The position numbers were made by a program, and so were the translations under genes. Positions 2,352 through 29,848 of a stretch of DNA of 64,000 bases are shown one piece after another (the stretch's first letter is position 1; each line of letters begins with the position of its first letter). Under the pieces are notes generated by a model, which saw only the letters and a program-made list of their open reading frames with translations, was not told the DNA's origin and made no database searches. The stretch lies in assembly GCF_057098645.1 (NCBI RefSeq), contig NZ_CM169472.1; one strand, given 5' to 3'.

Positions 2352-3674
2352 ATGAGTGCGTTAAGGGATGAAGTATCTATGAAGGTTGCGTTCTCTAATG
2401 GCATGATAAACAAATTATGCAAAAGTTTTTTTTATAGTCATGGTAAGGAGCAGCCTTGTATTCAAGTCGGTAAAGCATTAGAAGATTTTGTTTTTTGGCT
2501 TGCATATAATGATGAGGAGATTGCAAAATGTGCTAGTAGGTTATTAAAAGCATATGGCCCCCAATTAGGTATAAGTAACCTTCATAATGCGAAAAGATTA
2601 TTGTTAGGTTTTTGTTCTGAAGCCTTCAATCGCATTGATGCTGATTTTTTGTCGCTTAATCCTGATAAGATTTGTGTTGATGATATTATAACGCAAGTTC
2701 ATAGAAAAAATCTTAGTGAGATGTTTAAGTGTTATATACTTTCACGAATAAAATCCTGTCCATATATTTATAATCTTGGGTGTGCTGGCTTTGATGGGAA
2801 GCTTGAGCTTAGAGAAAATTTATTTTTATATGGCCCGGGGCTAGGGGTGGAATTACTTTCTGATATTAAAGACAAAACTGACATCAAGGTTCCTGTTGAT
2901 TTTTATGATGATGAATATATGCGGCATAAACCAATTGGGAAATATTTTCGACAGTCAAAATCCTGCTTGGTGGTGGCATATGCTTCATCAGAGGATAAAG
3001 CGGTGAAAATGTTTGATAGTTTGTTTGGAGCTTTATGTCTTGCAGTTGATAATCCTTTTGCGATTAATCGAGTTGCTGTTAATAATCTAGTTGAGTCTTT
3101 TGGTGTCGGGAAATATCATGAAAGTGAGTTTCGGGTGAATATTCCGTCTGTAAATAATTTAAATATAACGGATTCAACCTTGGCGATACTTACAAAAATA
3201 CTTTCATCACCTGATAAAAGGATGTTGTCTGCTCTTTCCTTTATAGCGCACGGGTGGAGAGATGACAAACGTGAAAGGTTTTTGAATCAATTTATAGCAT
3301 TGGATGCTATGTATGGAACCAATAATGGTAATAAAAATTCAATTATTGGCGGTGTTTGCAGAGATGCGGCGAAAATTATTGATATTGATTCAAAAATAGG
3401 AATAATCTATGAGCTTAGGTGTAAGTTTGTTCATGGAGATATTTCATCGTTATCTGATAATGATAGCTATCGAAAGTTTATTGATAGCTATGGCGTGGAC
3501 CCTATTGTTTCTCTTTTTGAAATTCTTAAAGAATGCGTCCTTAATTATAATGGTACTTACAAAACGCCAAAAGATGTTGGAAAGGCAGATAGGTCTATTT
3601 GCGTTCCTGCTGAGTTGCTTCCAGCGGTTGAGAGGATGATAGCGGAATACAGTGGAGTTAAAAAAACAAACTAA
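2352..3674 (+). CDS. hypothetical protein; AT-rich cargo gene at the tin/old position of P2; candidate anti-phage defence protein with C-terminal Rx4H (HEPN-like) motif
   Basis: 440-aa ORF, visibly AT-rich and Lys/Ile/Asn-rich unlike flanking phage genes; motif R356-CKFV-H361-GD; sits between gene A and cos. Confidence 0.75.
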   Translation: MSALRDEVSMKVAFSNGMINKLCKSFFYSHGKEQPCIQVGKALEDFVFWLAYNDEEIAKCASRLLKAYGPQLGISNLHNAKRLLLGFCSEAFNRIDADFLSLNPDKICVDDIITQVHRKNLSEMFKCYILSRIKSCPYIYNLGCAGFDGKLELRENLFLYGPGLGVELLSDIKDKTDIKVPVDFYDDEYMRHKPIGKYFRQSKSCLVVAYASSEDKAVKMFDSLFGALCLAVDNPFAINRVAVNNLVESFGVGKYHESEFRVNIPSVNNLNITDSTLAILTKILSSPDKRMLSALSFIAHGWRDDKRERFLNQFIALDAMYGTNNGNKNSIIGGVCRDAAKIIDIDSKIGIIYELRCKFVHGDISSLSDNDSYRKFIDSYGVDPIVSLFEILKECVLNYNGTYKTPKDVGKADRSICVPAELLPAVERMIAEYSGVKKTN

Positions 3675-6810: not shown

Positions 6811-6983
6811 GAATACCTCGCCGTGATGAATACACGGCAAGGCTACTGAGTCGCGCCCCGCGATTCGCTAAGGTGCTGTTGTGTCAGTGATAAGCCATCC
6901 GGGACTGATGGCGGAGGATGCGCATCGTCGGGAAACTGATGCCGACATGTGACTCCTCTAATCACTATTCAGGACTCCTGACA

Positions 6984-9812: not shown

Positions 9813-10322
9813 ATGATGACGCTGATTATTCCGCGAAAGGAGGCTCCCGTGTCCGGTGAGGGTACGGTGGTCATCCCGCAACCGGCAGGCGACGAGCCGG
9901 TGATTAAAAACACGTTCTTTTTTCCCGATATCGACCCGAAGCGCGTCCGGGAACGTATGCGCCTTGAGCAGACCGTCGCCCCCGCCCGTCTGCGTGAGGC
10001 CATCAAGTCAGGCATGGCGGAGACAAATGCGGAGCTGTACGAGTACCGCGAACAGAAAATTGCCGCCGGTTTTACGCGTCTGGCGGACGTCCCGGCGGAC
10101 GATATCGACGGTGAAAGCATCAAAGTTTTTTACTACGAGCGCGCCGTGTGTGCGATGGCGACCGCGTCGCTTTATGAGCGTTATCGCGGCGTGGATGCCA
10201 GTGCGAAAGGTGACAAGAAGGCTGACAGCATTGACAGCACCATTGATGAGCTGTGGCGGGATATGCGCTGGGCGGTGGCGCGTATCCAGGACAAACCGCG
10301 CTGCATCGTGAGTCAAATCTGA
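9813..10322 (+). CDS. L: head completion/stabilisation protein (P2 gpL-like)
   Basis: ORF track 9753..10322; start trimmed to MMTLIIP giving 169 aa; stop overlaps X start (ATGA). Confidence 0.88.
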   Translation: MMTLIIPRKEAPVSGEGTVVIPQPAGDEPVIKNTFFFPDIDPKRVRERMRLEQTVAPARLREAIKSGMAETNAELYEYREQKIAAGFTRLADVPADDIDGESIKVFYYERAVCAMATASLYERYRGVDASAKGDKKADSIDSTIDELWRDMRWAVARIQDKPRCIVSQI

Positions 10323-12291: not shown

Positions 12292-12721
12292 TGCCGTCAC
12301 GGTGCTGAAAACCAGCCCCGAGATGCTGCGGATATTCGTGGATAACGGGAGTATTGCCTCCACACTGGCGACGTCACTGTCATTCGAAAAGCGTTACACG
12401 CTCAATGTCATTGTGACCGATTTTACCGATGATTTTGACCTGCTCATCGTGCCGGTGCTGGCGTGGCTGCGGGAAAATCAGCCCGACATCATGACCACCG
12501 ACGAAGGTCAGAAAAAGGGCTTCACGTTTTATGCAGACATCAACAATGACAGCAGCTTTGATATCAGCATCAGCCTGATGCTGACCGAGCGCACGCTGGT
12601 CAGTGAGGTGGACGGCGCACTGCATGTGAAGAATATCCCGGAACCCCCGCCGCCGGAGCCGGTCACCCGCCCGATGGAGCTGTATATCAATGGCGAACTG
12701 GTGAGCAAGTGGGATGAATGA
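12254..12721 (+). CDS. R: tail completion protein (P2 gpR-like)
   Basis: 155-aa ORF, same length as P2 R; synteny. Confidence 0.88.
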   Translation: MLKPDSLRRALTDAVTVLKTSPEMLRIFVDNGSIASTLATSLSFEKRYTLNVIVTDFTDDFDLLIVPVLAWLRENQPDIMTTDEGQKKGFTFYADINNDSSFDISISLMLTERTLVSEVDGALHVKNIPEPPPPEPVTRPMELYINGELVSKWDE

Positions 12722-13163
12722 GTTTAAGCGTTTTGAAGACCGGCTGACCGGAATGATTGAGTCGCTGTCACCGTCAGGGCGTCGGCGACTGGCGGTAGAT
12801 ATTGCGAAGAAACTGCGCCAGCGCCAGCAGCAGCGAATTAAATTACAAAAAGGCCCGGATGGTACGCCGTATGTACCGAGAAAAAACCAACCAGTGCGAA
12901 ATAAGAAAGGCCGGATAAAGCGGGAAATGTTTGTGAAATTACGCACTAACCGGTTTATGAAAGCAACAGCTAGCGAGAGTGCGGCGGTGGTGGAGTTTAC
13001 TGGTAAGGTTGAGTGTATTGCGAGAGTACATCAATTTGGGTTGGCTGATAAGCCTAGTTACAACAGTAAGGCTGTGGTTTATCCTGTTCGTATACTTATG
13101 GGAATCTCAGAGCGTGATACGAAATTTGTTGAAGAAGTTATTATTCGCTACCTATCTCATTAG
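12714..13163 (+). CDS. S: tail completion protein (P2 gpS-like); 3' two-thirds is AT-rich and looks mosaic
   Basis: 149-aa ORF starting MNEFKRFEDRLTG; synteny; composition shift near 12830. Confidence 0.85.
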   Translation: MNEFKRFEDRLTGMIESLSPSGRRRLAVDIAKKLRQRQQQRIKLQKGPDGTPYVPRKNQPVRNKKGRIKREMFVKLRTNRFMKATASESAAVVEFTGKVECIARVHQFGLADKPSYNSKAVVYPVRILMGISERDTKFVEEVIIRYLSH

Positions 13164-13213
13164 GGACGATGAAAATATAGTTTCATCAGCTATATTCTAG
13201 TATATAAAATACT

Positions 13214-13238
13214 AAGGCTACACTAGCCGTGTAGCCTT
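13214..13238. terminator. bidirectional intrinsic terminator between convergent S and the cargo NTPase gene
   Basis: perfect 10-bp stem AAGGCTACAC / GTGTAGCCTT with 5-nt loop, flanked by A/T-rich runs on both sides. Confidence 0.6.
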
Positions 13239-13263
13239 AGTATATGTTTGGGATATTATATAA

Positions 13264-14508
13264 CTAAATCCAGCGAAGGTAGAATAGTAAGTAAGGATCT
13301 CTGATGTCTAATACATCGCTTTCTTGATCCCACTCGATAATACTGCTATTTGCAGCATCGTTGGCAATAGCAGTTGAGTGCTGACATGCACTGGTTATAC
13401 TAGAACCGCTTGGGCTATCGCCATGACATAACGAGGTCACTCGAGATACTAAGTCAGAATAACGAAATGTCAGCGTCGGAGGATTAGAAGCAATGGCTTT
13501 TAATAAAAAGACATAAACATCGCCTTGCCAGCCATCTTTTGATATATATGATTTTCTATCAGAACCACGCACTTTAGGTCCTTCGCGCATTTTATCCACA
13601 ATCGTGCTGTAATCTGCTGACTGAAGTGTACGTTTGCACACTCTTTGCAATGTGGCAATATCTTTTTGATATTTTATTGAAGTATCAGAAGTCTCTCTGA
13701 CATTCATTTCAAAACAAGAGTTTAAGCATAAATATTGCATTAGTTGTGGTGAGCCTGCGGACTCTTTTACTAACTCACTTATAACTTCATCAGAGGCATC
13801 TATATTGAGTAGTTTGAATCCTTTCTGAGCAATAATTTTTAAGGTTGATTCATCCCAATAATCAAAATCAATATTAAATATCCGGCCTCGTAAGTCAGAG
13901 TTACCCCGAAGAACATCATCAGAATGATATGGCACTGATGCACAAATAAATTTGCAGCCATTAGCTATGGCATCTTTTATTTGTCGTGATAGTTCGGCTT
14001 GAGCTTCTTTAGCAATATAGTGAAAATCATCGATAAAGATAACATAATCTGTGTTTGCGATTTCTCGCTTCATTAGTTGAAAGAGATCTATCGCAAATGA
14101 TTCTGAGGTTTGATCTGCTGTACTATAACCAGCGGATGCAGACCCTTTAAGACTACCTTTTGCTAAAATTACACCAGCTTGGGCAGATAATTCTCCTGTA
14201 CTTGAAAATGATGAGGTGCCAGTTTTACTTTGAACTTGGGTTACTGGTACACCAAGTATGTCGAAAACGCGCTTCCATAAATCATTAGCAGATTGAACCC
14301 CTGCTCCAGTTACTTCGATTAGCCTCTGGGTTCCAAGTACTTTCTTAACAAAGACAGTTTTTCCTGATTTTGATGGGCCAGAGATAGAAATCAGCATGGT
14401 GCCCATCTCAAGTGTATCGATTAACTGTTGCTGTTTAGATACTAGGTGATCCTCAACCAGTGTGTGGTTGGGATAACCGCCTGGGATAAAAACCTCTGTC
14501 GCCTTCAT
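13264..14508 (-). CDS. hypothetical P-loop NTPase; AT-rich cargo gene between S and V; candidate anti-phage defence ATPase
   Basis: 414-aa ORF; Walker A GPSKSGKT (aa 44-51, nt 14356..14379); Walker B YVIFIDD (aa 155-161); Ser/Thr/Gly-rich insert between them; opposite strand and lower GC than the phage backbone. Confidence 0.8.
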   Translation of the reverse strand: MKATEVFIPGGYPNHTLVEDHLVSKQQQLIDTLEMGTMLISISGPSKSGKTVFVKKVLGTQRLIEVTGAGVQSANDLWKRVFDILGVPVTQVQSKTGTSSFSSTGELSAQAGVILAKGSLKGSASAGYSTADQTSESFAIDLFQLMKREIANTDYVIFIDDFHYIAKEAQAELSRQIKDAIANGCKFICASVPYHSDDVLRGNSDLRGRIFNIDFDYWDESTLKIIAQKGFKLLNIDASDEVISELVKESAGSPQLMQYLCLNSCFEMNVRETSDTSIKYQKDIATLQRVCKRTLQSADYSTIVDKMREGPKVRGSDRKSYISKDGWQGDVYVFLLKAIASNPPTLTFRYSDLVSRVTSLCHGDSPSGSSITSACQHSTAIANDAANSSIIEWDQESDVLDIRDPYLLFYLRWI

Positions 14509-14549
14509 ATATCAACGCCAACATTATTAATGGTATGCCAATTTTACGT

Positions 14550-14567
14550 TGTAAGAGGATCAATACA
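14550..14567. promoter_or_regulatory. TGT-N12-ACA dyad upstream of V (Ogr/Delta-type late activator site candidate)
   Basis: TGTAAGAGGATCAATACA in the divergent region between the cargo gene and V; spacing to the V start is shorter than expected, so tentative. Confidence 0.3.
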
Positions 14568-14614
14568 AGTTCCATTTATTGCCTGTGAGTGCTGAAAAAT
14601 TCAATATTTGAAAA

Positions 14615-15250
14615 ATGAATATAAATCACTCATTACAAGAGCTTGCGCGTGCACTGCGCAACATGATCCGCACCGGTATTATCGTCGAAACCGACCTTAA
14701 CGCCGGTCGCTGCCGTGTGCAGACCGGCGGCATGTGCACCGACTGGCTTCAGTGGCTGACCCATCGTGCCGGACGTTCGCGCACATGGTGGGCACCTTCC
14801 GTGGGGGAACAGGTGCTGATTCTGGCTGTGGGCGGTGAACTCGACACGGCGTTCGTTCTGCCGGGGATTTATTCCGGCGATAACCCCGCGCCGTCTGCGT
14901 CGGCGGATGCCCTGCATATCCGTTTCCCTGACGGGGCGGTGATTGAGTATGAACCCGAAACCAGTTCACTGACGGTAAGCGGAATTAAAACGGCCAGCGT
15001 GACGGCTTCTGATTTTGTTACTGCCACGGTGCCGGTGGTCACGGTGAAAGCATCAACCCGCGTCACCCTGGACACACCGGAGGTGGTCTGCACCAACAGG
15101 CTGATTACCGGCACGCTGGAAGTGCAGAAGGGCGGGACGATGCGCGGCAACATTGAACACACCGGCGGTGAACTCTCATCAAACGGTAAGGTACTGCATA
15201 CCCATAAACACCCCGGCGACAGTGGCGGCACAACAGGGGGACCTCTATGA
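14615..15250 (+). CDS. V: baseplate spike (P2 gpV-like)
   Basis: 211-aa ORF, same length as P2 V; synteny. Confidence 0.92.
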   Translation: MNINHSLQELARALRNMIRTGIIVETDLNAGRCRVQTGGMCTDWLQWLTHRAGRSRTWWAPSVGEQVLILAVGGELDTAFVLPGIYSGDNPAPSASADALHIRFPDGAVIEYEPETSSLTVSGIKTASVTASDFVTATVPVVTVKASTRVTLDTPEVVCTNRLITGTLEVQKGGTMRGNIEHTGGELSSNGKVLHTHKHPGDSGGTTGGPL

Positions 15251-15594
15251 CAGCGCGTTATCTCGGAATGAATCGCAGTGATGGCCTGACTGTCACTGAC
15301 CTTGAGCATATCAGCCAGAGTATCGGCGATATCCTGCGCACACCGGTCGGCTCACGGGTGATGCGTCGTGATTACGGCTCGTTGCTGGCGTCAATGATTG
15401 ACCAGCCGCAGACCCCGGCGCTTGAGTTGCAGATTAAAGTCGCCTGTTACATGGCAGTGCTGAAATGGGAACCCCGCGTCACCCTGTCATCCGTCACCAC
15501 GGCGCGCAGTTTTGACGGGCGAATGACGGTCACGTTAACCGGCCAGCACAACGACACCGGCCAGCCACTTTCGTTAACCATCCCTGTGAGTTGA
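15247..15594 (+). CDS. W: baseplate wedge protein (P2 gpW-like)
   Basis: 115-aa ORF; synteny. Confidence 0.9.
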   Translation: MTARYLGMNRSDGLTVTDLEHISQSIGDILRTPVGSRVMRRDYGSLLASMIDQPQTPALELQIKVACYMAVLKWEPRVTLSSVTTARSFDGRMTVTLTGQHNDTGQPLSLTIPVS

Positions 15595-15598
15595 AACC

Positions 15599-16507
15599 AT
15601 GCCGATTATCGACCTGAACCAGCTACCCGCACCGGATGTGGTCGAGGAGCTGGACTTTGAAACCATTCTTGCCGAACGCAAGGCGACACTGATTTCCCTT
15701 TACCCGGAAGACCAGCAGGAGGCGGTCGCCCGTACCCTGACACTGGAATCTGAGCCTCTCGTCAAACTGCTGGAGGAAAATGCTTATCGTGAGCTTATCT
15801 GGCGTCAGCGTGTGAATGAGGCTGCACGGGCGGTGATGCTGGCCTGTGCAGCCGGTAATGACCTTGATGTGATTGGTGCCAATTACAACACCACACGCCT
15901 GATTATCACCCCGGCAGATGATTCAACCATCCCGCCGACACCGGCCGTGATGGAATCTGACACCGATTATCGTCTGCGTATTCAGCAGGCGTTTGAAGGT
16001 TTAAGCGTCGCCGGGTCGGTGGGGGCCTATCAGTATCATGGTCGAAGTGCCGACGGGCGTGTCGCAGATATCTCTGTCACCAGTCCTTCTCCGGCCTGCG
16101 TCACCATCTCTGTGCTGTCACGTGAAAATAACGGTGTGGCATCCGAAGACCTGCTGGCGGTGGTGCGCAACGCCCTTAATGGTGAGGACGTCAGACCGGT
16201 GGCCGACCGTGTGACCGTGCAGTCTGCCGTCATCGTTGAATACCAGATAAATGCCACGCTTTACCTTTACCCTGGCCCCGAAAGCGAACCCATTCGCGCT
16301 GCCGCCGTGAAAAAACTGGAAGCGTATATCACGGCACAGCACCGGCTGGGGCGCGACATCCGACTGTCTGCCATTTATGCCGCTTTGCATGTGGAAGGCG
16401 TGCAGCGTGTCGAACTGGCTGCACCGCTGGCCGACATCGTGCTCAACAATACGCAGGCGTCTTTCTGTACCGAATACAGCGTCGTGACCGGAGGCTCGGA
16501 TGAGTGA
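15599..16507 (+). CDS. J: baseplate protein (P2 gpJ-like)
   Basis: 302-aa ORF; synteny. Confidence 0.9.
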   Translation: MPIIDLNQLPAPDVVEELDFETILAERKATLISLYPEDQQEAVARTLTLESEPLVKLLEENAYRELIWRQRVNEAARAVMLACAAGNDLDVIGANYNTTRLIITPADDSTIPPTPAVMESDTDYRLRIQQAFEGLSVAGSVGAYQYHGRSADGRVADISVTSPSPACVTISVLSRENNGVASEDLLAVVRNALNGEDVRPVADRVTVQSAVIVEYQINATLYLYPGPESEPIRAAAVKKLEAYITAQHRLGRDIRLSAIYAALHVEGVQRVELAAPLADIVLNNTQASFCTEYSVVTGGSDE

Positions 16508-17111
16508 TTCGCGACTGCTGCCGACCGGCTCATCACCGCTTGAAGTCGCTGCCGCAAAAGCCTGTGCGGAAATTGAAAAAACGCCGGTCAGTATTCGTGA
16601 GCTGTGGAACCCGGACACCTGCCCGGCAAATCTGCTGCCGTGGCTGGCGTGGTCATTTTCGGTTGACCGCTGGGATGATAAGTGGCCGGAAGCGACAAAA
16701 CGCGCTGTTATCCGCGATGCGTATTTCATTCACTGCCATAAGGGCACTATAGGCGCAATCCGGCGTGTGGTGGAGCCGCTCGGCTATCTGATTGAGGTGA
16801 GGGAGTGGTGGCAGCTCAACGAGGAGCCGGGGACGTTCCGCATCGTTGTTGGCGTGCTTGAGCAGGGTATTACCGAGGAAATGTATCAGGAGCTGGAGCG
16901 CCTCGTTGCTGATGCAAAACCGGCAAGCCGCCATCTGACGGGACTGGCTATCAGTTTAAGTACAACCGGCAACATTTTTGCCGGTGCGGGATGCTATCAC
17001 GGTGACGCCCTGACGGTTTATCCCTACACCCCGGAGGCCATTATTGTCGGAGGGGATTATTTCCCGGCCTCGGCCATTCATTTAATTGATAACCTGAGAG
17101 TAAACGCATGA
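16500..17111 (+). CDS. I: baseplate protein (P2 gpI-like)
   Basis: 203-aa ORF overlapping J stop and H start; synteny. Confidence 0.85.
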   Translation: MSDSRLLPTGSSPLEVAAAKACAEIEKTPVSIRELWNPDTCPANLLPWLAWSFSVDRWDDKWPEATKRAVIRDAYFIHCHKGTIGAIRRVVEPLGYLIEVREWWQLNEEPGTFRIVVGVLEQGITEEMYQELERLVADAKPASRHLTGLAISLSTTGNIFAGAGCYHGDALTVYPYTPEAIIVGGDYFPASAIHLIDNLRVNA

Positions 17112-18388
17112 CAGTGAAATACTACGCCATTCTGACTAATCAGGGCGCAGCACGGCTGGCTAACGCGACGATGCTCGGCAGTAAGCTGAATCTGACGCAA
17201 ATGGCCGTTGGTGATGCGAATGGTGTCTTGCCGACACCAGACCCGGCACAGACAAAACTGATTAACCAGAAACGCATCGCGCCGCTGAATCTTCTGAGTG
17301 TTGACCCGAACAACCAGAGCCAGATTATTGCGGAGCAAATCATCCCTGAGAACGAGGGCGGATTCTGGATCCGTGAGATTGGGCTTTATGATGATGAAGG
17401 CGTACTCATTGCGGTGGCGAACTGCCCGGAAACGTACAAACCGCAGTTGCAGGAAGGCAGTGGTCGTACCCAGACTATCCGCATGATTCTGGTTGTCACG
17501 AATACCGAAGCTATTACGCTGAAAATCGACCCGTCGGTGGTACTGGCGACCCGTAAATACGTGGATGATGAAGTCCTGGAATTAAGGCTGTATGTGGATG
17601 ACCAGATGAGAAACCACATTGCCGCACAGGATCCTCATAGCCAGTATGCACAGAAACATAATCCGACATTTACCGGAGAACCAAAAGCGCCGACGCCTGC
17701 CGCAGGGAATAACACCACGCGGATTGCGACCACTGAGTTTGTTCAGGCCGCTATTACCGCTCTGATTAACGGTGCGCCAGCCACGCTGGACACACTGAAA
17801 GAAATTGCCGCAGCCATTAACAATGACCCGAAATTCAGTACCACCATTAACAATGCGCTGTCAGGTAAGCAGCCACTGGATGAGACGCTGACTCATTTGA
17901 GTGGAAAGGATGTTGCCGGTCTTCTCGCATACCTTGGTTTGGGAGAAGCGGCAAAACGGAATGTGGGCAACGGGGAAAACCAAATCCCTGATATGTCTTT
18001 CTGGACGGCTACTGGTGGCAATGGAAATTTTGTGATTCGTCAACCTGACGGGCTAATCATTCAGATGGTTACTGTAAGTATAAGCGGCCCAGTGGCGATG
18101 AATGGAATGACTGATAATGCTTATGCCATCACAGGTTCTAATAAGTCTTATATTGCCACAGCCACATTGCCCTTTGTATTTCCTAATAAGGTGCTGGGCG
18201 TTATCCCTCTGGTATCAACAACAGCCTATGGTGGTGTATCCAGTAATATTACAGGTTCATACGCGACGGCGGTTTGTTCTTTTGCCGCTGTCAGGGGGAA
18301 TAATACGATTGTGTTCAAAGTCGACAAACCACTGAATGCAGCCTTTCCTTCAGATACCAGCGTCTCAGCGTTAATCATTGGACGGTAA
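17108..18388 (+). CDS. H: tail fibre protein (P2 gpH-like); C-terminal part lies inside the invertible segment
   Basis: 426-aa ORF; crossover site inside the gene at the LGLGE motif; followed by a tail-fibre assembly gene. Confidence 0.88.
   Translation: MTVKYYAILTNQGAARLANATMLGSKLNLTQMAVGDANGVLPTPDPAQTKLINQKRIAPLNLLSVDPNNQSQIIAEQIIPENEGGFWIREIGLYDDEGVLIAVANCPETYKPQLQEGSGRTQTIRMILVVTNTEAITLKIDPSVVLATRKYVDDEVLELRLYVDDQMRNHIAAQDPHSQYAQKHNPTFTGEPKAPTPAAGNNTTRIATTEFVQAAITALINGAPATLDTLKEIAAAINNDPKFSTTINNALSGKQPLDETLTHLSGKDVAGLLAYLGLGEAAKRNVGNGENQIPDMSFWTATGGNGNFVIRQPDGLIIQMVTVSISGPVAMNGMTDNAYAITGSNKSYIATATLPFVFPNKVLGVIPLVSTTAYGGVSSNITGSYATAVCSFAAVRGNNTIVFKVDKPLNAAFPSDTSVSALIIGR
17922..17947. other. 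site-specific recombination (crossover) site of a Gin/Hin-family invertase, left copy, inside H
   Basis: TTCTCGCATACC-TT-GGTTTGGGAGAA; right half is the reverse complement of the left half of the site at 22512..22537. Confidence 0.6.
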
Positions 18389-18390
18389 GA

Positions 18391-18945
18391 ATGAACTCAG
18401 TATTCTTTTCACCCGGAAGTAAAAGTTTTTATCTGCAAGAATTGTTTCCAGAATATGAGGATGCGGGAACGCTTCCTGATGATGTTATTGAAATTACCCG
18501 AGAAACATATGAGCAATTTCTTGGGCTGCATCCAGAAGGGAAAGAAATTGGCGCTGACAGTTCAGGACGGCCAATATGGATTAATTCCCCGCCGCCTTCA
18601 AAAGAGGATGAGGTGCTGGCGGCTGAAATGAAAAAAATATCTTTGGTTTCAGAAGTCAATACCTACATCAATACCCATCAGTGGCCTGGCAAAGCTGCTA
18701 TTGGTCGTCTGAAAGGTGACGAGCTGGAACAATATAATTTATGGCTGGATTATCTGGACGCACTGGAACTGGTTGATACCTCCAGTGCTCCAGATTGCGT
18801 ATTCCGCTCTATTCGATCACGGATTGGCATCGAAGTCCGATCAGCGATTCGCATCCATTCGATCAACCGGGAACTTAACTTTTTCTACCGCTTTTTAACG
18901 CGTTTTTTCGCTGCTTTCCACTACCGGGGGATTTTTCCTCAGTGA
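18391..18945 (+). CDS. G: tail fibre assembly protein (gpG-like) with C-terminus replaced by IS-derived sequence
   Basis: 184-aa ORF; native sequence ends at ...DTSSAPD (nt ~18795), then reads into the IS21-family element. Confidence 0.7.
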   Translation: MNSVFFSPGSKSFYLQELFPEYEDAGTLPDDVIEITRETYEQFLGLHPEGKEIGADSSGRPIWINSPPPSKEDEVLAAEMKKISLVSEVNTYINTHQWPGKAAIGRLKGDELEQYNLWLDYLDALELVDTSSAPDCVFRSIRSRIGIEVRSAIRIHSINRELNFFYRFLTRFFAAFHYRGIFPQ

Positions 18946-19650
18946 CTCTCCCTGAAGGACCACTCGGTGTGAGTTATGTACCAGTCTGTCCAGGATGGCA
19001 TCTGCTGTTGTTGGGTTCTCCATCAGACCATGCCATTTATCTACCGGGAACTGGCTTACCACTATCGTGCTGCTTTGTCCGTAACGATCCTCTATGAGCT
19101 CCAGAAGGTCATTACACTGGGCGTTACTTAACTGTTCCAGCCCCAGATCGTCCAGGATTAGAACCTGTATTTTTTGCAACTGTTTCAGATATTTCAGCCA
19201 GCTGCCATCAACACGTCCCTGAGCCAGTTGTTCCAGTAATCGCCCGGTTCTACAGTACCGGACGCTGTGTTTCTGTCGACATGCCTGTTCGCCCAGCGCA
19301 TTGGCTATCCAGCTCTTGCCACATCCTGTCGGACCGGTTATCAGCAGGTTTTTCCTGTGGGTTATGTAGTGGCCGTTCAGCAGTTCTCTCATCTGTTCAG
19401 CCCGCAGACCTCTTGAGGCCGGATAGCGCAGCCCTTCCGGTGTTGCCTGGTATTTCAGGCCGGCATTTTTTCTCAACCGTGCCACACGGCTGTTTTCCCT
19501 GCTCAGAAGCTCGTCATCAACCAGCAGCGTCAGCCTTTCCTCGAACGACAGTTCGTCGTAGGTCTGAGGCGTTTCCCGCTGCCGTATCAGGCTCCCGGCC
19601 ATCGCCGGGAGTTTCAGTTGGGTCAGTTTGTTTAACAGGTTATCACTCAT
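18895..19650 (-). CDS. istB: IS21-family helper ATPase IstB
   Basis: Walker A GPTGCGKS, Walker B VLILDDLG; start trimmed to MSDNLLNKL within ORF-track 18895..19893. Confidence 0.9.
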   Translation of the reverse strand: MSDNLLNKLTQLKLPAMAGSLIRQRETPQTYDELSFEERLTLLVDDELLSRENSRVARLRKNAGLKYQATPEGLRYPASRGLRAEQMRELLNGHYITHRKNLLITGPTGCGKSWIANALGEQACRQKHSVRYCRTGRLLEQLAQGRVDGSWLKYLKQLQKIQVLILDDLGLEQLSNAQCNDLLELIEDRYGQSSTIVVSQFPVDKWHGLMENPTTADAILDRLVHNSHRVVLQGESLRKNPPVVESSEKTR

Positions 19651-19666
19651 ACTGTTGTTCCTTCTG

Positions 19667-21202
19667 TCAGTGGTAGTAGCCCGGACCACGCAGGTTTTCA
19701 TGCTCTGAAGCATATGCCGGATGTTGTTCGCCCTGGCGGGATAATGGAAGCTCCAGGTTCTCCCGATGGTGACGCAGCAGATTGTCGATAAAGCGTCTGT
19801 CAGGGGCGTTATAGTGCAGGGCAACGTAACAGGCCTTTTCCAGCCGTTCCGGGCCGTATTTTTTCTGAAGTGCCAGCAGCCCCAGAACTGCACGATAAGC
19901 CAGTTCCGGATGGGGTTTTGCCTTCAGCATGGATTCAACCACCCGGCCTGTGGACGGGCCCGTACGTTTTCCCTGCTCGATCAGGCGTTCCGGTGTCCAT
20001 GTCCCGTGCTGCCGGTGGCGCTCTGGCATGTGAAGCGGATTGGTTGTGTGTTTATATTCATGTGTGCTGCGCGGATGTTGCGCCACACACTGCCCCTTGT
20101 GCCAGAGCTGTACCACCGACTGCCCCGCCTTCAGTGACAGACGCTGACCGACCAGTTCGTGTGGAACGGAGTACCAGTGACGGGCATATTCAACGTGGTA
20201 GTCAGGGCCAACCTTCACAGCTTTGTATTCCGTGTATTCATAAGGTGCCAGAGGCAGCGGAGAGAGTGCTGGCGCATCCAGTATGCGGAAGCGTTCTGCA
20301 CGGGTTTGATTGCCGTACCCCTTCATTGGCCGGTTATTCATGTCTGTCAGTAACTCCCTAAGGCGCGCATTCAGCGCCCTGAGCGTGTGGAAGGTTTCAT
20401 TACGGATGCGGGCAAGAAGCCATCGTTCAACGATGAGGACGCCGTTTTCTGCTTTTGGTTTATCTTTAGGTTTGCGTGGTCGGGCCGGGATGATAACCGT
20501 GCCATAGTGCTCAGCCAGTGCCTGATAACTGTCGTTGATGACAGGCTCATATCGATCGGCCTTTTTCACTGCGCTTCTGAGGTTATCGGGGATGAGCAGC
20601 TTCGGTACGCCGCCCAGGAAGGTCAGGCAACGGCTGTGGGCATTTAACCATGACATCATGTCCTGACCTTCGCACGCTTCAACGTAGGTATAGTTGGACG
20701 CCCCCATTACGGCCACGAAGATTGCCACGCGGCGTATCTCACCGGTGTCCGGATTAATAACAGGAACCGTAGGACCACAGAAGTCGATAAAAAGCTTTTC
20801 GCCGGCACGATGCTCCTGGCGCATGGAGAGACGTCGCGTTTTTTTCCACTCCCGGTAGCAACGGCAGAAGTGCGAGTATCCCATCGCTTTGTTACCCGCC
20901 TGTGCCTTGTATTCCATCCACAACAGTTGCCGCGTCACACCTGGTTTTCTCATTTCCGTATCGAAGTACAACATGTCAGGCATTACAAGCTCTGATGCAA
21001 AGGTGTCTTTGGGCGGAAAAATGAGTTTCTCCAGCGTGTCATGGGATATATCAGCAGGTAATGGCCATGACAGAGAAGAGGCTTTGAAGCGGGCAAGAAC
21101 CTCAAAAACGGTTGAGGCGCTGATGTGTAACGTCAGTCCGATACAACGGTTAGTCAGCTTCTTGTCGAACTTGAGCTGAAGGATCTTAAAACAGGTTTCC
21201 AT
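19667..21202 (-). CDS. istA: IS21-family transposase IstA
   Basis: N-terminal HTH then DDE-type core; start trimmed to METCFKIL within ORF-track 19667..21313 (track start is a TTG). Confidence 0.88.
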   Translation of the reverse strand: METCFKILQLKFDKKLTNRCIGLTLHISASTVFEVLARFKASSLSWPLPADISHDTLEKLIFPPKDTFASELVMPDMLYFDTEMRKPGVTRQLLWMEYKAQAGNKAMGYSHFCRCYREWKKTRRLSMRQEHRAGEKLFIDFCGPTVPVINPDTGEIRRVAIFVAVMGASNYTYVEACEGQDMMSWLNAHSRCLTFLGGVPKLLIPDNLRSAVKKADRYEPVINDSYQALAEHYGTVIIPARPRKPKDKPKAENGVLIVERWLLARIRNETFHTLRALNARLRELLTDMNNRPMKGYGNQTRAERFRILDAPALSPLPLAPYEYTEYKAVKVGPDYHVEYARHWYSVPHELVGQRLSLKAGQSVVQLWHKGQCVAQHPRSTHEYKHTTNPLHMPERHRQHGTWTPERLIEQGKRTGPSTGRVVESMLKAKPHPELAYRAVLGLLALQKKYGPERLEKACYVALHYNAPDRRFIDNLLRHHRENLELPLSRQGEQHPAYASEHENLRGPGYYH

Positions 21203-21299
21203 AGTGCTCCTGGATTTTCTCTTTCTGGACATTGACGTCTCCACTGGTTTAAACACGGCAATGGAGACTGTGGTGAAAAGAGTTAATTCCCGGAGTGAC

Positions 21300-21434
21300 T
21301 GGCAGGATGCCAATCAATGATCGGAAGCATGCCAAATCGTGATCGATTGTGATGCCAAACTGTGATCGGAGATGGATGCCAAATCATGATCGATTCGAAT
21401 GCCAAACTGCGATCGATTCAGATGCCATTTTGCA
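21300..21434. repeat. tandem ~20-bp terminal repeats of the IS21-family element (transposase binding sites)
   Basis: five to six copies of GATGCCAAA(C/T)NGTGATCGAT-like units; similar units inverted at the other end (18796..18880). Confidence 0.7.
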
Positions 21435-21450
21435 CCAGATATTGAATGGC

Positions 21451-22056
21451 CTACGCCTCCGGTAGTTCAGGCCAGATGACATCCGGCGCGGTGCTGATAT
21501 CTGTTGCAGTCACCGCGTCAATGTAATCCAGCACAGCGTTAAGCCGGGTTGTTTCTGCCTGCGTCAGCTTCCGCCCGGCCTGCAATTTCAGCTGAATCAG
21601 ACTAATGGAAGCCATAGCCGCATCAATCAGTGACTGGCGCCGTACTTCTGCCGCGTCTACTGCGGCGTTATGCTGTGCCTCAGTGTCGGTCACCCATTTC
21701 TCACCATCCCATTTATCGTATGACGTTAACGGGGCGATAGTGGTTGTATTTTCAGGGTAATCACCCGGAACTGTGATTTCTTTTGATTCTCCTGTTTCGG
21801 TGCTATAGACGATTTCACCGCGATGGTCTGGCACATATTCCCATGAGTTAAAATCTGCAGAACGGCAAATTGCATAACCAGCTTTATATGAGCCAGGAGC
21901 ATCTAAACAGGAACATGCCGGGATACCGACACCCACAGCAAGATATTCAGTTGATGTGGAAATATATTCCCGTGTTTCACCATCATAATTATAAACGGTA
22001 ATGTCTCCGGCCTTTGTGGCGATGAGTTCATTATTTAATACAGCTTTACTTATCAT
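21451..22056 (-). CDS. tail fibre assembly protein, alternative copy in the invertible segment
   Basis: 201-aa ORF ending ...APDVIWPELPEA; directly downstream of the alternative fibre C-terminal cassette. Confidence 0.85.
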   Translation of the reverse strand: MISKAVLNNELIATKAGDITVYNYDGETREYISTSTEYLAVGVGIPACSCLDAPGSYKAGYAICRSADFNSWEYVPDHRGEIVYSTETGESKEITVPGDYPENTTTIAPLTSYDKWDGEKWVTDTEAQHNAAVDAAEVRRQSLIDAAMASISLIQLKLQAGRKLTQAETTRLNAVLDYIDAVTATDISTAPDVIWPELPEA

Positions 22057-22565
22057 GCAGCCCTCACAATATAATTAAAGGCGATGTTACGGGAGCGGGT
22101 TTCAGATGCTGTGCGAACTGAGCGAGATGCGTCGAATGTCCAGTTATAAGCGCCATAACCCTCAATAATTTCGGCTTCCTTTAGACCTGTAGATAATACT
22201 TGCCCATGTTGACTAAATGGCCCTGAACTAAGTACGTCTCTAAAAAGCTGGGTACGCCCAAAAGAACCAACAATATTCTGAATTGCATCATTCTGTGCAG
22301 ATAATAAGTTACGACCAGAGTCAATCCCGCGCCCATCATCCCAGCCACGAATAAATTCACCGCGTAAATCTGGTAATTTTAATGTTGGGTAAGCCTTTGC
22401 CAGATTTGGGTACTTTTCAGAAGAAAATACTGCTCCGTTACATTTTAGCCACCCCATTGGCGGAGTGGCTGAAGGCCACGGAACAGGCACACCAACCGGT
22501 AATGCAGAGCCTTCTCCCAAACCAACGTTTAAGAAAATGCAGAGATTATGTCTAACTGGCATCAT
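22053..22565 (-). CDS. alternative tail fibre C-terminal cassette (promoterless; expressed only after inversion fuses it to H)
   Basis: ORF contains the same NVGLGE junction motif as H at the crossover site; lies between the right crossover site and the alternative assembly gene. Confidence 0.75.
   Translation of the reverse strand: MMPVRHNLCIFLNVGLGEGSALPVGVPVPWPSATPPMGWLKCNGAVFSSEKYPNLAKAYPTLKLPDLRGEFIRGWDDGRGIDSGRNLLSAQNDAIQNIVGSFGRTQLFRDVLSSGPFSQHGQVLSTGLKEAEIIEGYGAYNWTFDASRSVRTASETRSRNIAFNYIVRAA
22512..22537. other. site-specific recombination (crossover) site of a Gin/Hin-family invertase, right copy
   Basis: TTCTCCCAAACC-AA-CGTTTAAGAAAA fits the TTnTCnnAAACC-nn-GGTTTnnGAnAA consensus with one mismatch; adjacent to the invertase gene. 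Confidence 0.65.
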
Positions 22566-22592
22566 CTCCGGTTTTTATTCAGGGGGATGCTC

Positions 22593-23186
22593 ATGCTTAT
22601 TGGCTATGTACGCGTGTCAACAAATGACCAGAACACGGAATTGCAGCGTAATGCGCTGGAGTGCGCAGGATGTGAGCTGATTTTTGAGGACAAAATCAGC
22701 GGCACGAAGTCCGACAGGCCGGGGCTGAAAAAACTGCTCAGAACATTATCGGAAGGTGACACTCTGGTTGTCTGGAAGCTGGACAGGCTGGGGCGTAGTA
22801 TGCGGCATCTGGTCATTCTGGTTGAGGAACTGCGCGAACGCGGCGTTAATTTTCGCAGCCTGACGGATGCTATTGATACCAGCACGCCGATGGGGCGTTT
22901 TTTCTTTCATGTGATGGGTGCCCTGGCTGAAATGGAGCGAGAACTCATTGTCGAGCGGACACGCGCCGGACTGGAAGCGGCCAGAGCCAAAGGTCGTATT
23001 GGTGGCAGACGACCGAAACTCACCGCGAGTGAGTGGGAGCAGGCCGGGCGTTTGCTGGCTGCAGGGGAGTCACGTCAACGCGTGGCACTGATTTTTGATA
23101 TTGGTCTGTCCACGCTCTATAAAAAATTTCCCTCATCAGCGACAAAGAATAAATTGTGTCATCCCTTAGCCAACCGGGACAAATAG
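22593..23186 (+). CDS. serine DNA invertase (Gin/Hin/Cin/Pin family)
   Basis: MLIGYVRVSTNDQ catalytic-serine N-terminus and C-terminal HTH; start trimmed from ORF-track 22548. Confidence 0.9.
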   Translation: MLIGYVRVSTNDQNTELQRNALECAGCELIFEDKISGTKSDRPGLKKLLRTLSEGDTLVVWKLDRLGRSMRHLVILVEELRERGVNFRSLTDAIDTSTPMGRFFFHVMGALAEMERELIVERTRAGLEAARAKGRIGGRRPKLTASEWEQAGRLLAAGESRQRVALIFDIGLSTLYKKFPSSATKNKLCHPLANRDK

Positions 23187-23245: not shown

Positions 23246-24436
23246 ATGAGTGACTATCATCACGGCGTGCAGGTGCTGGAGATTAACGACGGCACCCGCG
23301 TCATTTCCACCGTATCCACGGCCATTGTCGGCATGGTCTGCACGGCCAGCGATGCAGATGCGGAAACCTTCCCCCTCAATAAACCGGTGCTGATTACCAA
23401 TGTGCAGAGCGCAATTGCAAAGGCCGGTAAAAAAGGCACGCTGGCGGCGTCGTTACAGGCCATCGCTGACCAGTCAAAACCGGTCACCGTTGTTGTGCGC
23501 GTGGAAGACGGCACCGGCGACGACGAAGAAACGAAACTTGCGCAGACCGTTTCCAATATCATCGGCACCACCGACGAAAACGGTCAGTACACCGGACTGA
23601 AAGCCCTGCTGGCGGCGGAGTCGGTAACCGGTGTTAAACCGCGTATTCTCGGCGTGCCGGGACTGGATACCAAAGAGGTGGCTGTTGCACTGGCATCAGT
23701 CTGTCAGAAGCTGCGCGCTTTCGGGTATATCAGCGCATGGGGCTGTAAAACCATTTCCGAGGTGAAAGCCTACCGCCAGAATTTCAGCCAGCGTGAGCTG
23801 ATGGTCATCTGGCCGGATTTCCTCGCATGGGATACGGTCGCCAGTACCACTGCCACCGCGTATGCCACCGCCCGTGCACTGGGGCTGCGTGCCAAAATCG
23901 ACCAGGAGCAGGGCTGGCATAAAACGCTGTCCAATGTCGGGGTGAACGGTGTTACCGGCATCAGCGCGTCCGTATTCTGGGATTTGCAGGAGTCCGGCAC
24001 CGATGCTGACCTGCTTAACGAGTCAGGCGTCACAACGCTGATTCGCCGTGACGGTTTCCGCTTCTGGGGTAACCGTACCTGCTCTGATGACCCGCTGTTC
24101 CTCTTTGAAAACTACACCCGCACCGCGCAGGTGCTGGCCGACACGATGGCTGAGGCGCACATGTGGGCGGTGGACAAGCCCATCACCGCAACGCTGATTC
24201 GCGACATCGTTGACGGCATCAATGCCAAATTCCGTGAGCTGAAAACAAACGGCTATATCGTGGATGCGGCCTGCTGGTTCAGCGAAGAATCCAACGATGC
24301 GGAAACCCTCAAGGCCGGAAAACTGTATATCGACTACGACTATACACCGGTGCCTCCTCTCGAAAACCTGACCCTGCGCCAGCGTATTACCGATAAATAC
24401 CTGGCAAATCTGGTCACTTCGGTTAACAGCAATTAA
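23246..24436 (+). CDS. FI: tail sheath protein (P2 gpFI-like)
   Basis: 396-aa ORF, same length as P2 FI; synteny. Confidence 0.93.
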   Translation: MSDYHHGVQVLEINDGTRVISTVSTAIVGMVCTASDADAETFPLNKPVLITNVQSAIAKAGKKGTLAASLQAIADQSKPVTVVVRVEDGTGDDEETKLAQTVSNIIGTTDENGQYTGLKALLAAESVTGVKPRILGVPGLDTKEVAVALASVCQKLRAFGYISAWGCKTISEVKAYRQNFSQRELMVIWPDFLAWDTVASTTATAYATARALGLRAKIDQEQGWHKTLSNVGVNGVTGISASVFWDLQESGTDADLLNESGVTTLIRRDGFRFWGNRTCSDDPLFLFENYTRTAQVLADTMAEAHMWAVDKPITATLIRDIVDGINAKFRELKTNGYIVDAACWFSEESNDAETLKAGKLYIDYDYTPVPPLENLTLRQRITDKYLANLVTSVNSN

Positions 24437-29629: not shown

Positions 29630-29848
29630 ATGTTTCATTGTCCTTTATGCCAGCATGCCGCACATGCGCGTACAAGTCGCTATATCACTGACACGACAAA
29701 AGAGCGTTATCACCAGTGCCAGAACGTGAATTGCAGCGCCACGTTCATCACTTATGAGTCGGTACAGCGATACATCGTGAAGCCGGGAGAAGTCCACGCC
29801 GTAAGGCCGCACCCGTTGCCGTCAGGGCAGCAAATTATGTGGATGTAA
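29630..29848 (+). CDS. ogr: late transcription activator Ogr (zinc-finger)
   Basis: 72-aa ORF MFHCPLCQHAAH...CQNVNC with four Cys; start trimmed from ORF-track 29555. Confidence 0.9.
   Translation: MFHCPLCQHAAHARTSRYITDTTKERYHQCQNVNCSATFITYESVQRYIVKPGEVHAVRPHPLPSGQQIMWM

What the first reader, a model, noticed from the sequence alone, without database searches (positions are those of the whole stretch)
14509..14614. Divergent control region shared by the cargo NTPase and the V operon
The 106-bp region between the NTPase start and the V start contains TGTAAGAGGATCAATACA, a TGT-N12-ACA dyad like the Ogr/Delta-type late activator sites of P2 late promoters. Its centre is only ~57 nt from the V start codon, closer than the usual -55 from the transcription start, so the cargo insertion may have rearranged the V promoter, or the cargo gene may share late-activator control.
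Basis: inference. Interest (0 to 1): 0.3.

Follow-up and report, generated by a model that had tools for sequence, protein, structure and literature searches.

The report
Cargo-borne P2 V late promoter
This 106-bp gap is the ordinary Ogr-activated late promoter of the baseplate (V) operon of a P2-like prophage; it arrived on the same swapped cassette as a defence-like ATPase gene, whose own likely promoter overlaps the activator site.

Summary
The dyad is real: TGTAAGAGGATCAATACA at 14550-14567, extended to TTGTA-N10-TACAA at 14549-14568, with its centre 56.5 nt before the V ATG. The bare pattern is not enriched in the window (12 found, 16.3 expected). Its position is what counts. In P2 itself the annotated pV activator site is centred 55.5 nt before the V ATG, and the V transcript start is annotated on that ATG, so the mRNA is leaderless. 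The spacing is therefore native, not a rearrangement. Across 13 sequence classes of V upstream regions, and in phage 186, TGT sits 63-65 nt before the ATG. A weak -10 lies at -13..-7, and none has a Shine-Dalgarno sequence correctly placed before the ATG. The prophage encodes an Ogr identical to P2's. The promoter and V codons 1-7 belong to the swapped cassette (about 12939-14635). Ogr activation of the cargo gene is not supported, because a leftward start 55 nt from the dyad centre would fall inside the cargo coding sequence. Instead, five diverged cargo orthologues share a sigma-70-like promoter whose -35 is the V-proximal half-site and whose -10 lies just past the other half-site. That predicts Ogr occludes the cargo promoter; this last step is inferred. 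It is a new member of a known kind and of low-to-moderate interest.

The parts
14549..14568 (.). Predicted Ogr (late activator) binding dyad of pV: TTGT-N12-ACAA, with core TGT at 14550-14552 and ACA at 14565-14567. Centre 14558.5.
   Evidence: Same register as the annotated P2 pV activator site, as 13 upstream classes and as phage 186. Half-sites conserved and the N12 spacer variable in orthologous cassettes.
14579..14584 (+). Weak -35-like hexamer of pV (TTGCCT).
   Evidence: A TxGxxT pattern is conserved at -36..-31 in the five orthologues. ATTGCC sits at the same columns in the cargo-less class. PWM scan.
14602..14607 (+). -10 hexamer of pV (CAATAT; alternative AATATT at 14603-14608).
   Evidence: A CAWNNT hexamer lies at -13..-8 or -12..-7 in all classes. 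The PWM places the start at 14614-14615.
14614..14615 (+). Predicted V operon transcription start at or next to the A of the V ATG (leaderless V mRNA).
   Evidence: The P2 RefSeq record annotates the V transcript start on the V ATG. PMC4633059 cites P2 for leaderless mRNA. The window and four other classes have no anti-SD complementarity in the 20 nt before V; in the remaining classes it lies too far from the ATG. Not measured here.
14615..15250 (+). Gene V (baseplate spike/assembly protein, 211 aa). Codons 1-7 (MNINHSL) are cassette-specific.
   Evidence: 94% identical to P2 gpV. DNA homology to other P2-like phages resumes only at 14632-14636.
14563..14568 (-). Predicted -35 of the cargo promoter (TTGTAT on the minus strand). 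It is the reverse complement of the V-proximal half-site.
   Evidence: Top cargo-strand PWM candidate in the window and in L085, L087 and L088. The same TTGTxx/TAnnnT motif pair is present in L105 (read from the sequence; motif check). ACAA is invariant. Kept in L089, which has lost the other half-site.
14541..14546 (-). Predicted -10 of the cargo promoter (TAAAAT on the minus strand). Spacer 16 nt, start near 14534, leader about 26 nt.
   Evidence: A TAnnnT hexamer lies 16-18 nt after TTGTxx in all five orthologues. The chance of this is about 0.06-0.09 per sequence.
13264..14508 (-). Cargo gene: 414-aa P-loop ATPase matching the PADLOC candidate defence family PDC-S59.
   Evidence: PADLOC PDC-S59 at 2.8e-31. 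Pfam AAA_22/AAA_16 below the curated cut-offs. PGAP calls it 'ATP-binding protein'.
13209..13243 (.). 15-bp-stem hairpin between the S stop and the cargo stop. Likely terminator of the cargo gene, and possibly of the O operon.
   Evidence: Terminator scan and sequence.
12939..14635 (.). Extent of the swapped S-V hotspot cassette: 3' part of S, terminator, cargo, pV and V codons 1-7.
   Evidence: BLAST against 80 related loci: homology ends at 12938 (13091 for the L051 class) and resumes at 14636. Megablast to phages resumes at 14632.
29630..29845 (+). ogr, the cognate late activator, in the same prophage.
   Evidence: 72/72 aa identical to P2 Ogr.

Best explanation
Window 14509-14614 is the pV late promoter of a P2-like prophage, plus the promoter of the divergent cargo gene. 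Late in lytic growth, Ogr (encoded at 29630-29845) binds the TTGT-N12-ACAA dyad at 14549-14568 and recruits sigma-70 RNA polymerase to a weak core promoter. That core consists of -35 TTGCCT (14579-14584) and -10 CAATAT (14602-14607). Transcription starts at or within a few nt of the V ATG, so the V-W-J-I-H-G mRNA is leaderless, as annotated for P2. This explains why the dyad centre is about 56 nt from the start codon. The whole promoter and the first seven V codons are not P2 sequence. They belong to the cassette that brought the ATPase gene into the S-V (orf30) hotspot by exchange within S and V, and every functional element has been kept in register. In the lysogen the cargo gene is most likely read from its own sigma-70 promoter: -35 TTGTAT at 14568-14563, which is the V-proximal half-site read backwards, and -10 TAAAAT at 14546-14541, with a start near 14534. 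Because the dyad covers this promoter's -35 and spacer, Ogr binding is predicted to block it while activating pV. Shown here: the anatomy, the register and the conservation. Inferred: Ogr binding, both start sites and the occlusion.
For: P2 RefSeq record: pV activator site 10239-10266, with the V transcript start at 10308, which is also the V ATG. The pP/pO and pF starts lie 55.5-58.5 nt from their site centres. P2 is cited as a source of leaderless mRNA (PMC4633059). The consensus TGT-N12-ACA for the four P2 late promoters is given in PMC3931495. TGT lies at -65..-63 in nearly all 13 V-upstream classes, although pairwise identity to the window is only 24-43%, and it lies there in phage 186 too. 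No shift-null trial out of 5000 reached the observed value. No correctly placed Shine-Dalgarno precedes V: anti-SD duplex energy is +0.2 to +1.3 kcal/mol in the window and four other classes (random median -2.6). The -1.7 to -5.0 values in the other classes come from a hairpin arm too far from the ATG. Ogr is 100% identical to P2's, and the pO/pP site is identical to P2's. The module occurs in only 11 of 5426 complete E. coli genomes, with the gap 100% identical. Cargo orthologues at 62-76% aa identity sit in the same slot of P2-likes whose V is 53-77% identical. They keep CGyTGT-N12-ACAAG while the N12 spacer varies. In the window and three of these orthologues the top cargo-strand promoter candidate is TTGTxx-16/17-TAnnnT, at 10.3-11.2 bits, with a 25-30 nt leader. 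The fifth, L105, has the same motif pair with an 18-nt spacer. L089 keeps that promoter, has lost the other half-site (TTCA), and carries a separate pV dyad elsewhere.
Against: No transcript or binding data exist for this sequence. The pV core promoter scores only about the background median (8.2 bits against a median of 7.6), although that is expected for an activator-dependent promoter. The cargo -35 matches only 3 of 6 consensus positions, and the tool's stricter scan did not report it. The TTGT of that -35 would be conserved for Ogr binding anyway, so only the TAnnnT element and locus L089 are independent support. The dyad-to-ATG distance varies by 1-2 nt and the half-site spacing from N10 to N13 among relatives, so the exact start could be 1-4 nt upstream of the ATG. 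To my knowledge, no repressor role of Ogr has been reported.
Confidence: 0.85

Rival explanations
1. One Ogr site activates both divergent genes, as at P2 pP/pO, so the cargo ATPase is a late gene.
For: P2 pP and pO share one annotated activator site, with starts 55.5 nt either side of its centre. The dyad here is symmetric.
Against: The leftward point 55.5 nt from the centre is 14503, inside the cargo coding sequence (ATG at 14508). The N-terminal 36 residues are conserved in orthologues, so a downstream start is unlikely. A sigma-70-like promoter with the dyad over its -35 and spacer is conserved instead. L089 keeps the cargo promoter without an intact dyad.
Confidence: 0.06
2. The cargo insertion displaced or rearranged pV, so V is now read from another promoter with a normal leader, and the dyad is a remnant or a chance match.
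For: The 106 bp have no detectable DNA homology to P2 pV. The bare pattern is not enriched in the window.
Against: The geometry equals that of P2 (56.5 against 55.5-56.5 nt). Register is conserved across 13 classes and 186. V has no Shine-Dalgarno that would serve a leadered mRNA. No better plus-strand promoter exists in the gap. A divergent gene and a terminator upstream rule out read-through from the O operon.
Confidence: 0.04
3. The dyad is the operator of some other regulator (host CRP-like, or a cargo-specific factor), or it forms an RNA or DNA hairpin.
For: TGT/ACA half-sites resemble those of CRP-family sites. TGT-N12-ACA is also the PpsR/CrtJ motif in purple bacteria.
Against: From general knowledge, CRP half-sites are spaced TGT-N10-ACA, not N12. 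The cassette carries no regulator gene. PpsR is absent from enterobacteria. The gap has no Rfam match and no stable fold: z = +1.07 and +1.28, and the dyad does not pair in the minimum-energy structure.
Confidence: 0.03

Closest known systems
Bacteriophage P2 pV late promoter (NC_001895: activator site 10239-10266, V transcript start 10308)
   Same: Same operon and same activator (Ogr 100% identical). The dyad centre lies about 56 nt before the V ATG. Both have a TnCAAT/CAAT(A/C)T -10 region at -15..-8, no Shine-Dalgarno, and a divergent non-essential gene (orf30 in P2) immediately upstream.
   Different: The sequence is unrelated apart from the functional elements (36% ungapped identity). The dyad here is a perfect TGT-N12-ACA, whereas P2 pV reads TGT-N11-ACA. 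This one has a TTGCCT -35-like hexamer that P2 lacks. The gap is 106 bp against 83 bp. The first 6-7 V codons differ.
P2 pP/pO divergent late promoters sharing one activator site
   Same: One dyad lies between two divergent genes of the same prophage. That site is present unchanged in this window at 6874-6904.
   Different: At pP/pO both starts are 55.5 nt from the centre and both are activated. Here the left-hand gene starts only 50.5 nt from the centre, and its predicted promoter overlaps the site.
Phage 186 B-dependent late promoters (p12/pV, pJ) and P4 Delta / PSP3 Pag targets
   Same: The annotated B sites read GTTGT-N12-CCA and lie about 58 nt before the pJ start. The 186 V homologue (orf32) has TGT at -65..-63 and a GGCATTCTT -10 region.
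   Different: Phage 186 has no cargo in the S-V slot, and its record annotates no promoter there.
Leaderless phage and transposon mRNAs of E. coli (lambda cI from pRM, P2 late gene, Tn1721 tetR)
   Same: The transcript start is predicted on the AUG, ATG is invariant, and there is no Shine-Dalgarno.
   Different: Leaderless status is inferred here by register with P2, not measured.
P2 variable loci that carry non-essential or anti-phage cargo (orf30, Z/fun, tin-old); Rousset et al. 2022 describe P2/P4 defence hotspots
   Same: A candidate defence ATPase (PDC-S59) occupies the orf30 slot between S and V. The hotspot concept is from PMC9122126.
   Different: That paper's text does not mention orf30, gpS or gpV. 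Here the cassette limits lie inside S and V, and the cassette carries the essential pV promoter.

Membership tests
Ogr/Delta/B-dependent late promoter of P2-like phages | Hyphenated dyad of the TGT-N12-ACA type upstream of the core promoter | tested here: met
   TTGT-N12-ACAA at 14549-14568. It matches the G-TTGT-N12-(A/C)CA of the annotated P2 and 186 sites. Consensus cited from PMC3931495.
Ogr/Delta/B-dependent late promoter of P2-like phages | Dyad centred about 55 bp upstream of the transcription start | tested here: inconclusive
   The start was not measured. By register with P2 (start on the V ATG) and by the position of the -10, the centre would be at about -55.5 to -56.5.
Ogr/Delta/B-dependent late promoter of P2-like phages | Heads one of the late operons (here V W J I H G) | tested here: met
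   V, W, J, I, H and G follow directly at 14615-18945.
Ogr/Delta/B-dependent late promoter of P2-like phages | Cognate zinc-finger activator encoded by the same element | tested here: met
   ogr at 29630-29845, 72/72 aa identical to P2 Ogr.
Ogr/Delta/B-dependent late promoter of P2-like phages | Weak core promoter: recognisable -10 and a poor -35 | tested here: met
   TTGCCT-17-CAATAT scores 8.2 bits, close to the background median of 7.6.
Ogr/Delta/B-dependent late promoter of P2-like phages | Transcription depends on Ogr and on the RNA polymerase alpha subunit (rpoA109 phenotype) | not testable with these tools
   Needs reporter or in vitro transcription assays.
Leaderless mRNA | 5' end of the transcript at the A of an AUG start codon | not testable with these tools
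   Annotated for P2 V and cited in PMC4633059. Predicted here from the -10 position.
Leaderless mRNA | No Shine-Dalgarno, and an AUG (not GUG or UUG) start | tested here: met
   Anti-SD duplex energy is +0.4 kcal/mol for the window. No class has a correctly placed Shine-Dalgarno. ATG is the start in all 13 classes and 5 orthologues.
Bidirectional late promoter pair sharing one activator site (P2 pP/pO type) | Both divergent starts about 55 bp from the dyad centre, upstream of both coding sequences | tested here: not met
   The leftward position is 14503, which is 5 nt inside the cargo coding sequence that starts at 14508.
PADLOC PDC-S59 candidate defence protein (cargo gene) | Significant match to the family profile | tested here: met
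   E = 2.8e-31 over residues 37-296. Defence activity was not tested.

The most novel reading that the evidence does not exclude
Ogr acts as a two-way switch at this locus. The same bound dyad that turns on the leaderless V operon sits on the -35 and spacer of the prophage's defence-ATPase promoter and shuts it off in the late lytic phase. This overlap is conserved in orthologous cassettes down to 62% cargo identity. A different overlap, a perfect TTGACA on the V-distal half-site, occurs in the unrelated cassette L039. If so, S-V hotspot cassettes are selected to carry a pV promoter that doubles as an off-switch for their cargo.
Probability: 0.3. Interest if true: 0.5.

Novelty: new member of a known kind. 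Interest (0 to 1): 0.25.

Why it matters
For annotation, the case shows that the about 56-nt dyad-to-ATG distance is the signature of the leaderless V mRNA and not a sign of damage. It also shows that a strict TGT-N12-ACA search both over-calls and misses true sites: the pO/pP and pF sites in this same prophage read TGT-N12-CCA. For phage evolution, it shows that cassettes exchanged at the S-V (orf30) hotspot have their limits inside two essential genes and must bring a working copy of an essential late promoter. That promoter is rebuilt from unrelated sequence with all elements in register. If the predicted overlap with the cargo promoter is functional, it would be a simple way for a prophage to silence a defence or abortive-infection gene once its own late genes fire. 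It would also be the first repressor role proposed for an Ogr-family activator.

Tried and rejected
- Pattern enrichment: TGT-N12-ACA is not enriched in the window, so the case cannot rest on the motif alone.
- DNA homology of the gap to phages: none beyond chance hits. Megablast homology starts only inside V.
- The tool's consensus promoter scan found nothing in the gap on either strand. A PWM scan was needed.
- Known RNA families: none. RNA folding is no better than shuffles, and the dyad does not form a hairpin.
- Literature: the primary papers were not held, namely Christie & Calendar 1985, Julien & Calendar 1995 and the 2016 P2 review. Searches for 'P2 gene V leaderless' found nothing directly. 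Indirect support came from PMC4633059 and PMC3931495.
- The hotspot papers do not discuss the orf30/S-V slot or its promoters. The Salmonella BTP5 transcriptome paper gave no usable start site for V.
- P2 orf30 does not share the cargo-promoter layout. Its Shine-Dalgarno and ATG abut the dyad, so the overlap design is not universal.
- More distant cargo homologues (38-55% identity; L090-L095, L106-L121) are not next to a V gene and were not informative.
- The phage 186 record annotates no promoter before its V homologue. Only its sequence register could be used.

Full report
OBSERVATION. The gap 14509-14614 lies between a minus-strand 414-aa ORF (13264-14508) and gene V (14615-15250). PGAP annotates the same two genes with the same 106-bp gap in E. 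coli 258E. TGTAAGAGGATCAATACA is at 14550-14567, and the symmetry extends to TTGTA-N10-TACAA at 14549-14568. Its centre (14558.5) is 56.5 nt before the V ATG. The bare pattern TGT-N12-ACA is not enriched: 12 matches in 64 kb against 16.3 +/- 3.7 expected. The motif alone therefore proves nothing.

CONTEXT. The window holds a P2-like prophage: A, Q, P, O, N ... S, cargo, V ... FI ... D, ogr. Ogr (29630-29845) is 72/72 identical to P2 Ogr. The pP/pO intergenic region is identical to P2's, including the annotated activator site. The cargo protein is a P-loop ATPase. It matches the PADLOC candidate defence family PDC-S59 at 2.8e-31, while its Pfam AAA hits fall below the curated cut-offs. It occupies the slot that holds orf30 in P2.

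THE SPACING IS NATIVE. The P2 RefSeq record annotates the pV activator site at 10239-10266 (centre 10252.5). It annotates the 'transcription start site for V operon' at 10308, the same base as the V start codon. The other late promoters have ordinary leaders. pO starts at 3127 with its CDS at 3167. pP starts at 3016 with its CDS at 2993. pF starts at 17626-17628 with its CDS at 17652. Their starts are 55.5-58.5 nt from their site centres. The P2 V mRNA is thus annotated as leaderless. A paper on leaderless transcripts lists P2 phage among the few E. coli examples and cites Christie & Calendar 1985 (PMC4633059). The dyad-to-ATG distance is 55.5-56.5 nt in P2 and 56.5 nt here.

CONSERVATION IN REGISTER. 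Eighty loci encoding V relatives were fetched. They gave 47 distinct upstream sequences in 13 classes. Three classes have no cargo. Four have cargo on the same strand as V. Six, including P2 and the window, have a divergent cargo gene.
- Pairwise ungapped identity of the window's last 70 nt to the other classes is 24-43%.
- When the sequences are anchored at the ATG, TGT falls at -65..-63 in nearly all classes, with a 1-nt shift in a few.
- Among seven mutually dissimilar classes, the best 4-column information sum (5.17 bits) was never reached in 5000 random circular shifts. The count of columns with at least 6 of 7 identical had P = 0.011.
- Phage 186, from a different genus, has TGT at the same columns before its V homologue. 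Its annotated B-protein sites read GTTGT-N12-CCA.
- A -10-like CAWNNT sits at -13..-8 or -12..-7 in every class. Examples are CAATAT here, CAATCT in P2, CATCCT in the cargo-less class, and CATTAT or CATCAT in others.
- A T.G..T -35-like hexamer sits at -36..-31 (TTGCCT here, 14579-14584).
- A PWM scan puts the window's start at 14614-14615. The score of 8.2 bits is close to the background median, as expected for an activator-dependent promoter.
- V has no correctly placed Shine-Dalgarno in any class. Anti-SD duplex energy is +0.4 kcal/mol here and +0.2 to +1.3 in four other classes, against a random median of -2.6 and -6 to -9.5 for W, I, K and G. The -1.7 to -5.0 values in the other classes come from a hairpin arm too far from the ATG. 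The start codon is always ATG.
Together these features describe an Ogr-type promoter that fires a leaderless message.

THE PROMOTER IS PART OF THE CASSETTE. Megablast homology to P2-like phages resumes only at 14632. BLAST against the 80 loci shows homology ending at 12938, in mid-S (13091 for the L051 class), and resuming at 14636. S is only 57% identical to P2 S. The V N-terminus is MNINHSLQ rather than MNTLANIQ. The gap plus the V 5' end has no relative in 50,697 phage records. It occurs 100% identical in just 11 of 5426 complete E. coli genomes, always with the ATPase. The exchanged unit therefore runs from about 12939 to 14635. It contains the 3' part of S, a hairpin terminator (13209-13243), the cargo gene, pV and V codons 1-7. 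Nothing was 'rearranged'. A complete, differently spelled pV came in with the cargo.

THE CARGO SIDE. A leftward start 55.5 nt from the dyad centre, which is the pP/pO geometry, would be at 14503. That is inside the cargo coding sequence, whose N-terminus is conserved in orthologues. On the cargo strand the best sigma-70 candidate is TTGTAT (14568-14563), a 16-nt spacer, then TAAAAT (14546-14541). It scores 10.9 bits, above the 90th percentile of the best score per 241-nt window, and gives a start near 14534 and a 26-nt leader. Its -35 is the V-proximal half-site read backwards.

Cargo orthologues were then found in the same S-V slot of more distant P2-like phages. L085/L086 are 76% identical in the cargo, L088 74%, L087 71% and L105 62%; their V proteins are 53-77% identical. 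Their gaps are compact, at 101-109 nt.
- In their alignment the only strong block is CGyTGT-N12-ACAAG. The N12 spacer is almost fully variable, and ACAA is invariant.
- In the window, L085, L087 and L088 the top cargo-strand candidate has the same design, TTGTxx-16/17-TAnnnT, at 10.3-11.2 bits with 25-30 nt leaders.
- L105 has the same motif pair, TTGTGT-18-TATGTT (read from the sequence; motif check).
- TAnnnT at one of three allowed spacings has a chance of about 0.06-0.09 per sequence. The product over five is 2e-6, although the sequences are homologous and so not independent.
- L089 (cargo 73% identical) is a natural control. Its pV, with its own dyad, lies 211 nt away. It keeps TTGTTT-17-TAATTT at the same distance from the cargo ATG, but the other half-site has decayed to TTCA.
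This supports two conclusions. TTGTxx/TAnnnT is the cargo promoter, and in the compact cassettes the V-distal TTGT is kept for the activator. The dyad centre lies about 24 nt upstream of the predicted cargo start, between its -35 and -10. Bound Ogr should therefore hinder this promoter rather than help it. That step is inference only.

The unrelated cassette L039 has a perfect TTGACA overlapping the V-distal half-site, so promoter overlap recurs. P2 orf30 has a different layout, with its Shine-Dalgarno and ATG abutting the dyad.

EXCLUSIONS. The gap has no Rfam match. RNA folding is no better than shuffled sequence (z = +1.07 and +1.28), and the dyad does not pair in the minimum-energy fold. 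From general knowledge, CRP half-sites are spaced N10, not N12. The cassette encodes no regulator of its own.

VERDICT. The Ogr-site reading is right. The 'rearranged promoter' reading is wrong. 'Shared late-activator control of the cargo' is not supported as activation, though the two promoters do share the dyad physically. This is a new sequence member of a well-known promoter class. The modestly new points are that hotspot cassettes carry their own in-register pV, and that a cargo promoter is built over the Ogr site.

Noticed in passing
window 23154-23173 (upstream of FI, whose ATG is at 23246): The pF activator site keeps the P2 right half (TTAGCCAACCGGGAC). Its left half is different sequence that still has TTGTG in the same register. 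So the limit of the neighbouring variable region falls inside the activator site, and the site lies within the 3' end of a serine-invertase ORF (22548-23186).
   Followed up: partly
window 18895-21313: An IS21-family element sits directly after tail-fibre assembly gene G (18391-18945). It comprises an IstA-like transposase (548 aa, rve + Mu-transposase C-terminal domain) and an IstB-like ATPase (332 aa, PF01695 at 2e-60), both on the minus strand.
   Followed up: partly
window 21451-23186: An inverted tail-fibre assembly gene (Caudo_TAP) and a tail-fibre C-terminal fragment (Collar domain) lie on the minus strand, followed by a resolvase/invertase gene. This looks like a Mu-G/P1-C-like invertible host-range segment, now interrupted by the IS21 element.
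   Followed up: partly
window 2352-3674 (+): A 440-aa ORF lies between A and the cos/Q end, in the tin-old hotspot position. It has no Pfam or PADLOC match.
   Followed up: no
window 12714-13163: Gene S is mosaic. Its first about 225 nt are P2-like (about 93% DNA identity), and the rest belongs to another allele shared up to 13091 with the L051-class loci. The protein is only 57% identical to P2 S.
   Followed up: partly
L007, L051, L071, L079-L081, L089 (about -43..-15 before the V ATG); not present in the window: Most V-upstream classes that share the GGCAT(C/T)CTT proximal region carry a stem-loop (for example GCCGCCGG...CCGGCGGC) inside the pV core region. The arms show compensatory differences between classes (GCCGCTAGT/ACTAGCGGC, GCTGCTGG/CCAGCGGC). 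It may be the O-operon terminator overlapping pV.
   Followed up: no
L039 (about 58-63 nt before the V ATG), L020: In other divergent-cargo cassettes, the reverse complement of the V-distal half-site region (TGTGTCAA or TGTGCCAA) forms a TTGACA or TTGGCA -35 hexamer for leftward transcription. This is a second, independent way in which a cargo promoter overlaps the Ogr site.
   Followed up: partly
window 13209-13243: A 15-bp-stem hairpin lies between the convergent S and cargo genes. It has a T-run on the minus strand and is a possible bidirectional terminator.
   Followed up: no
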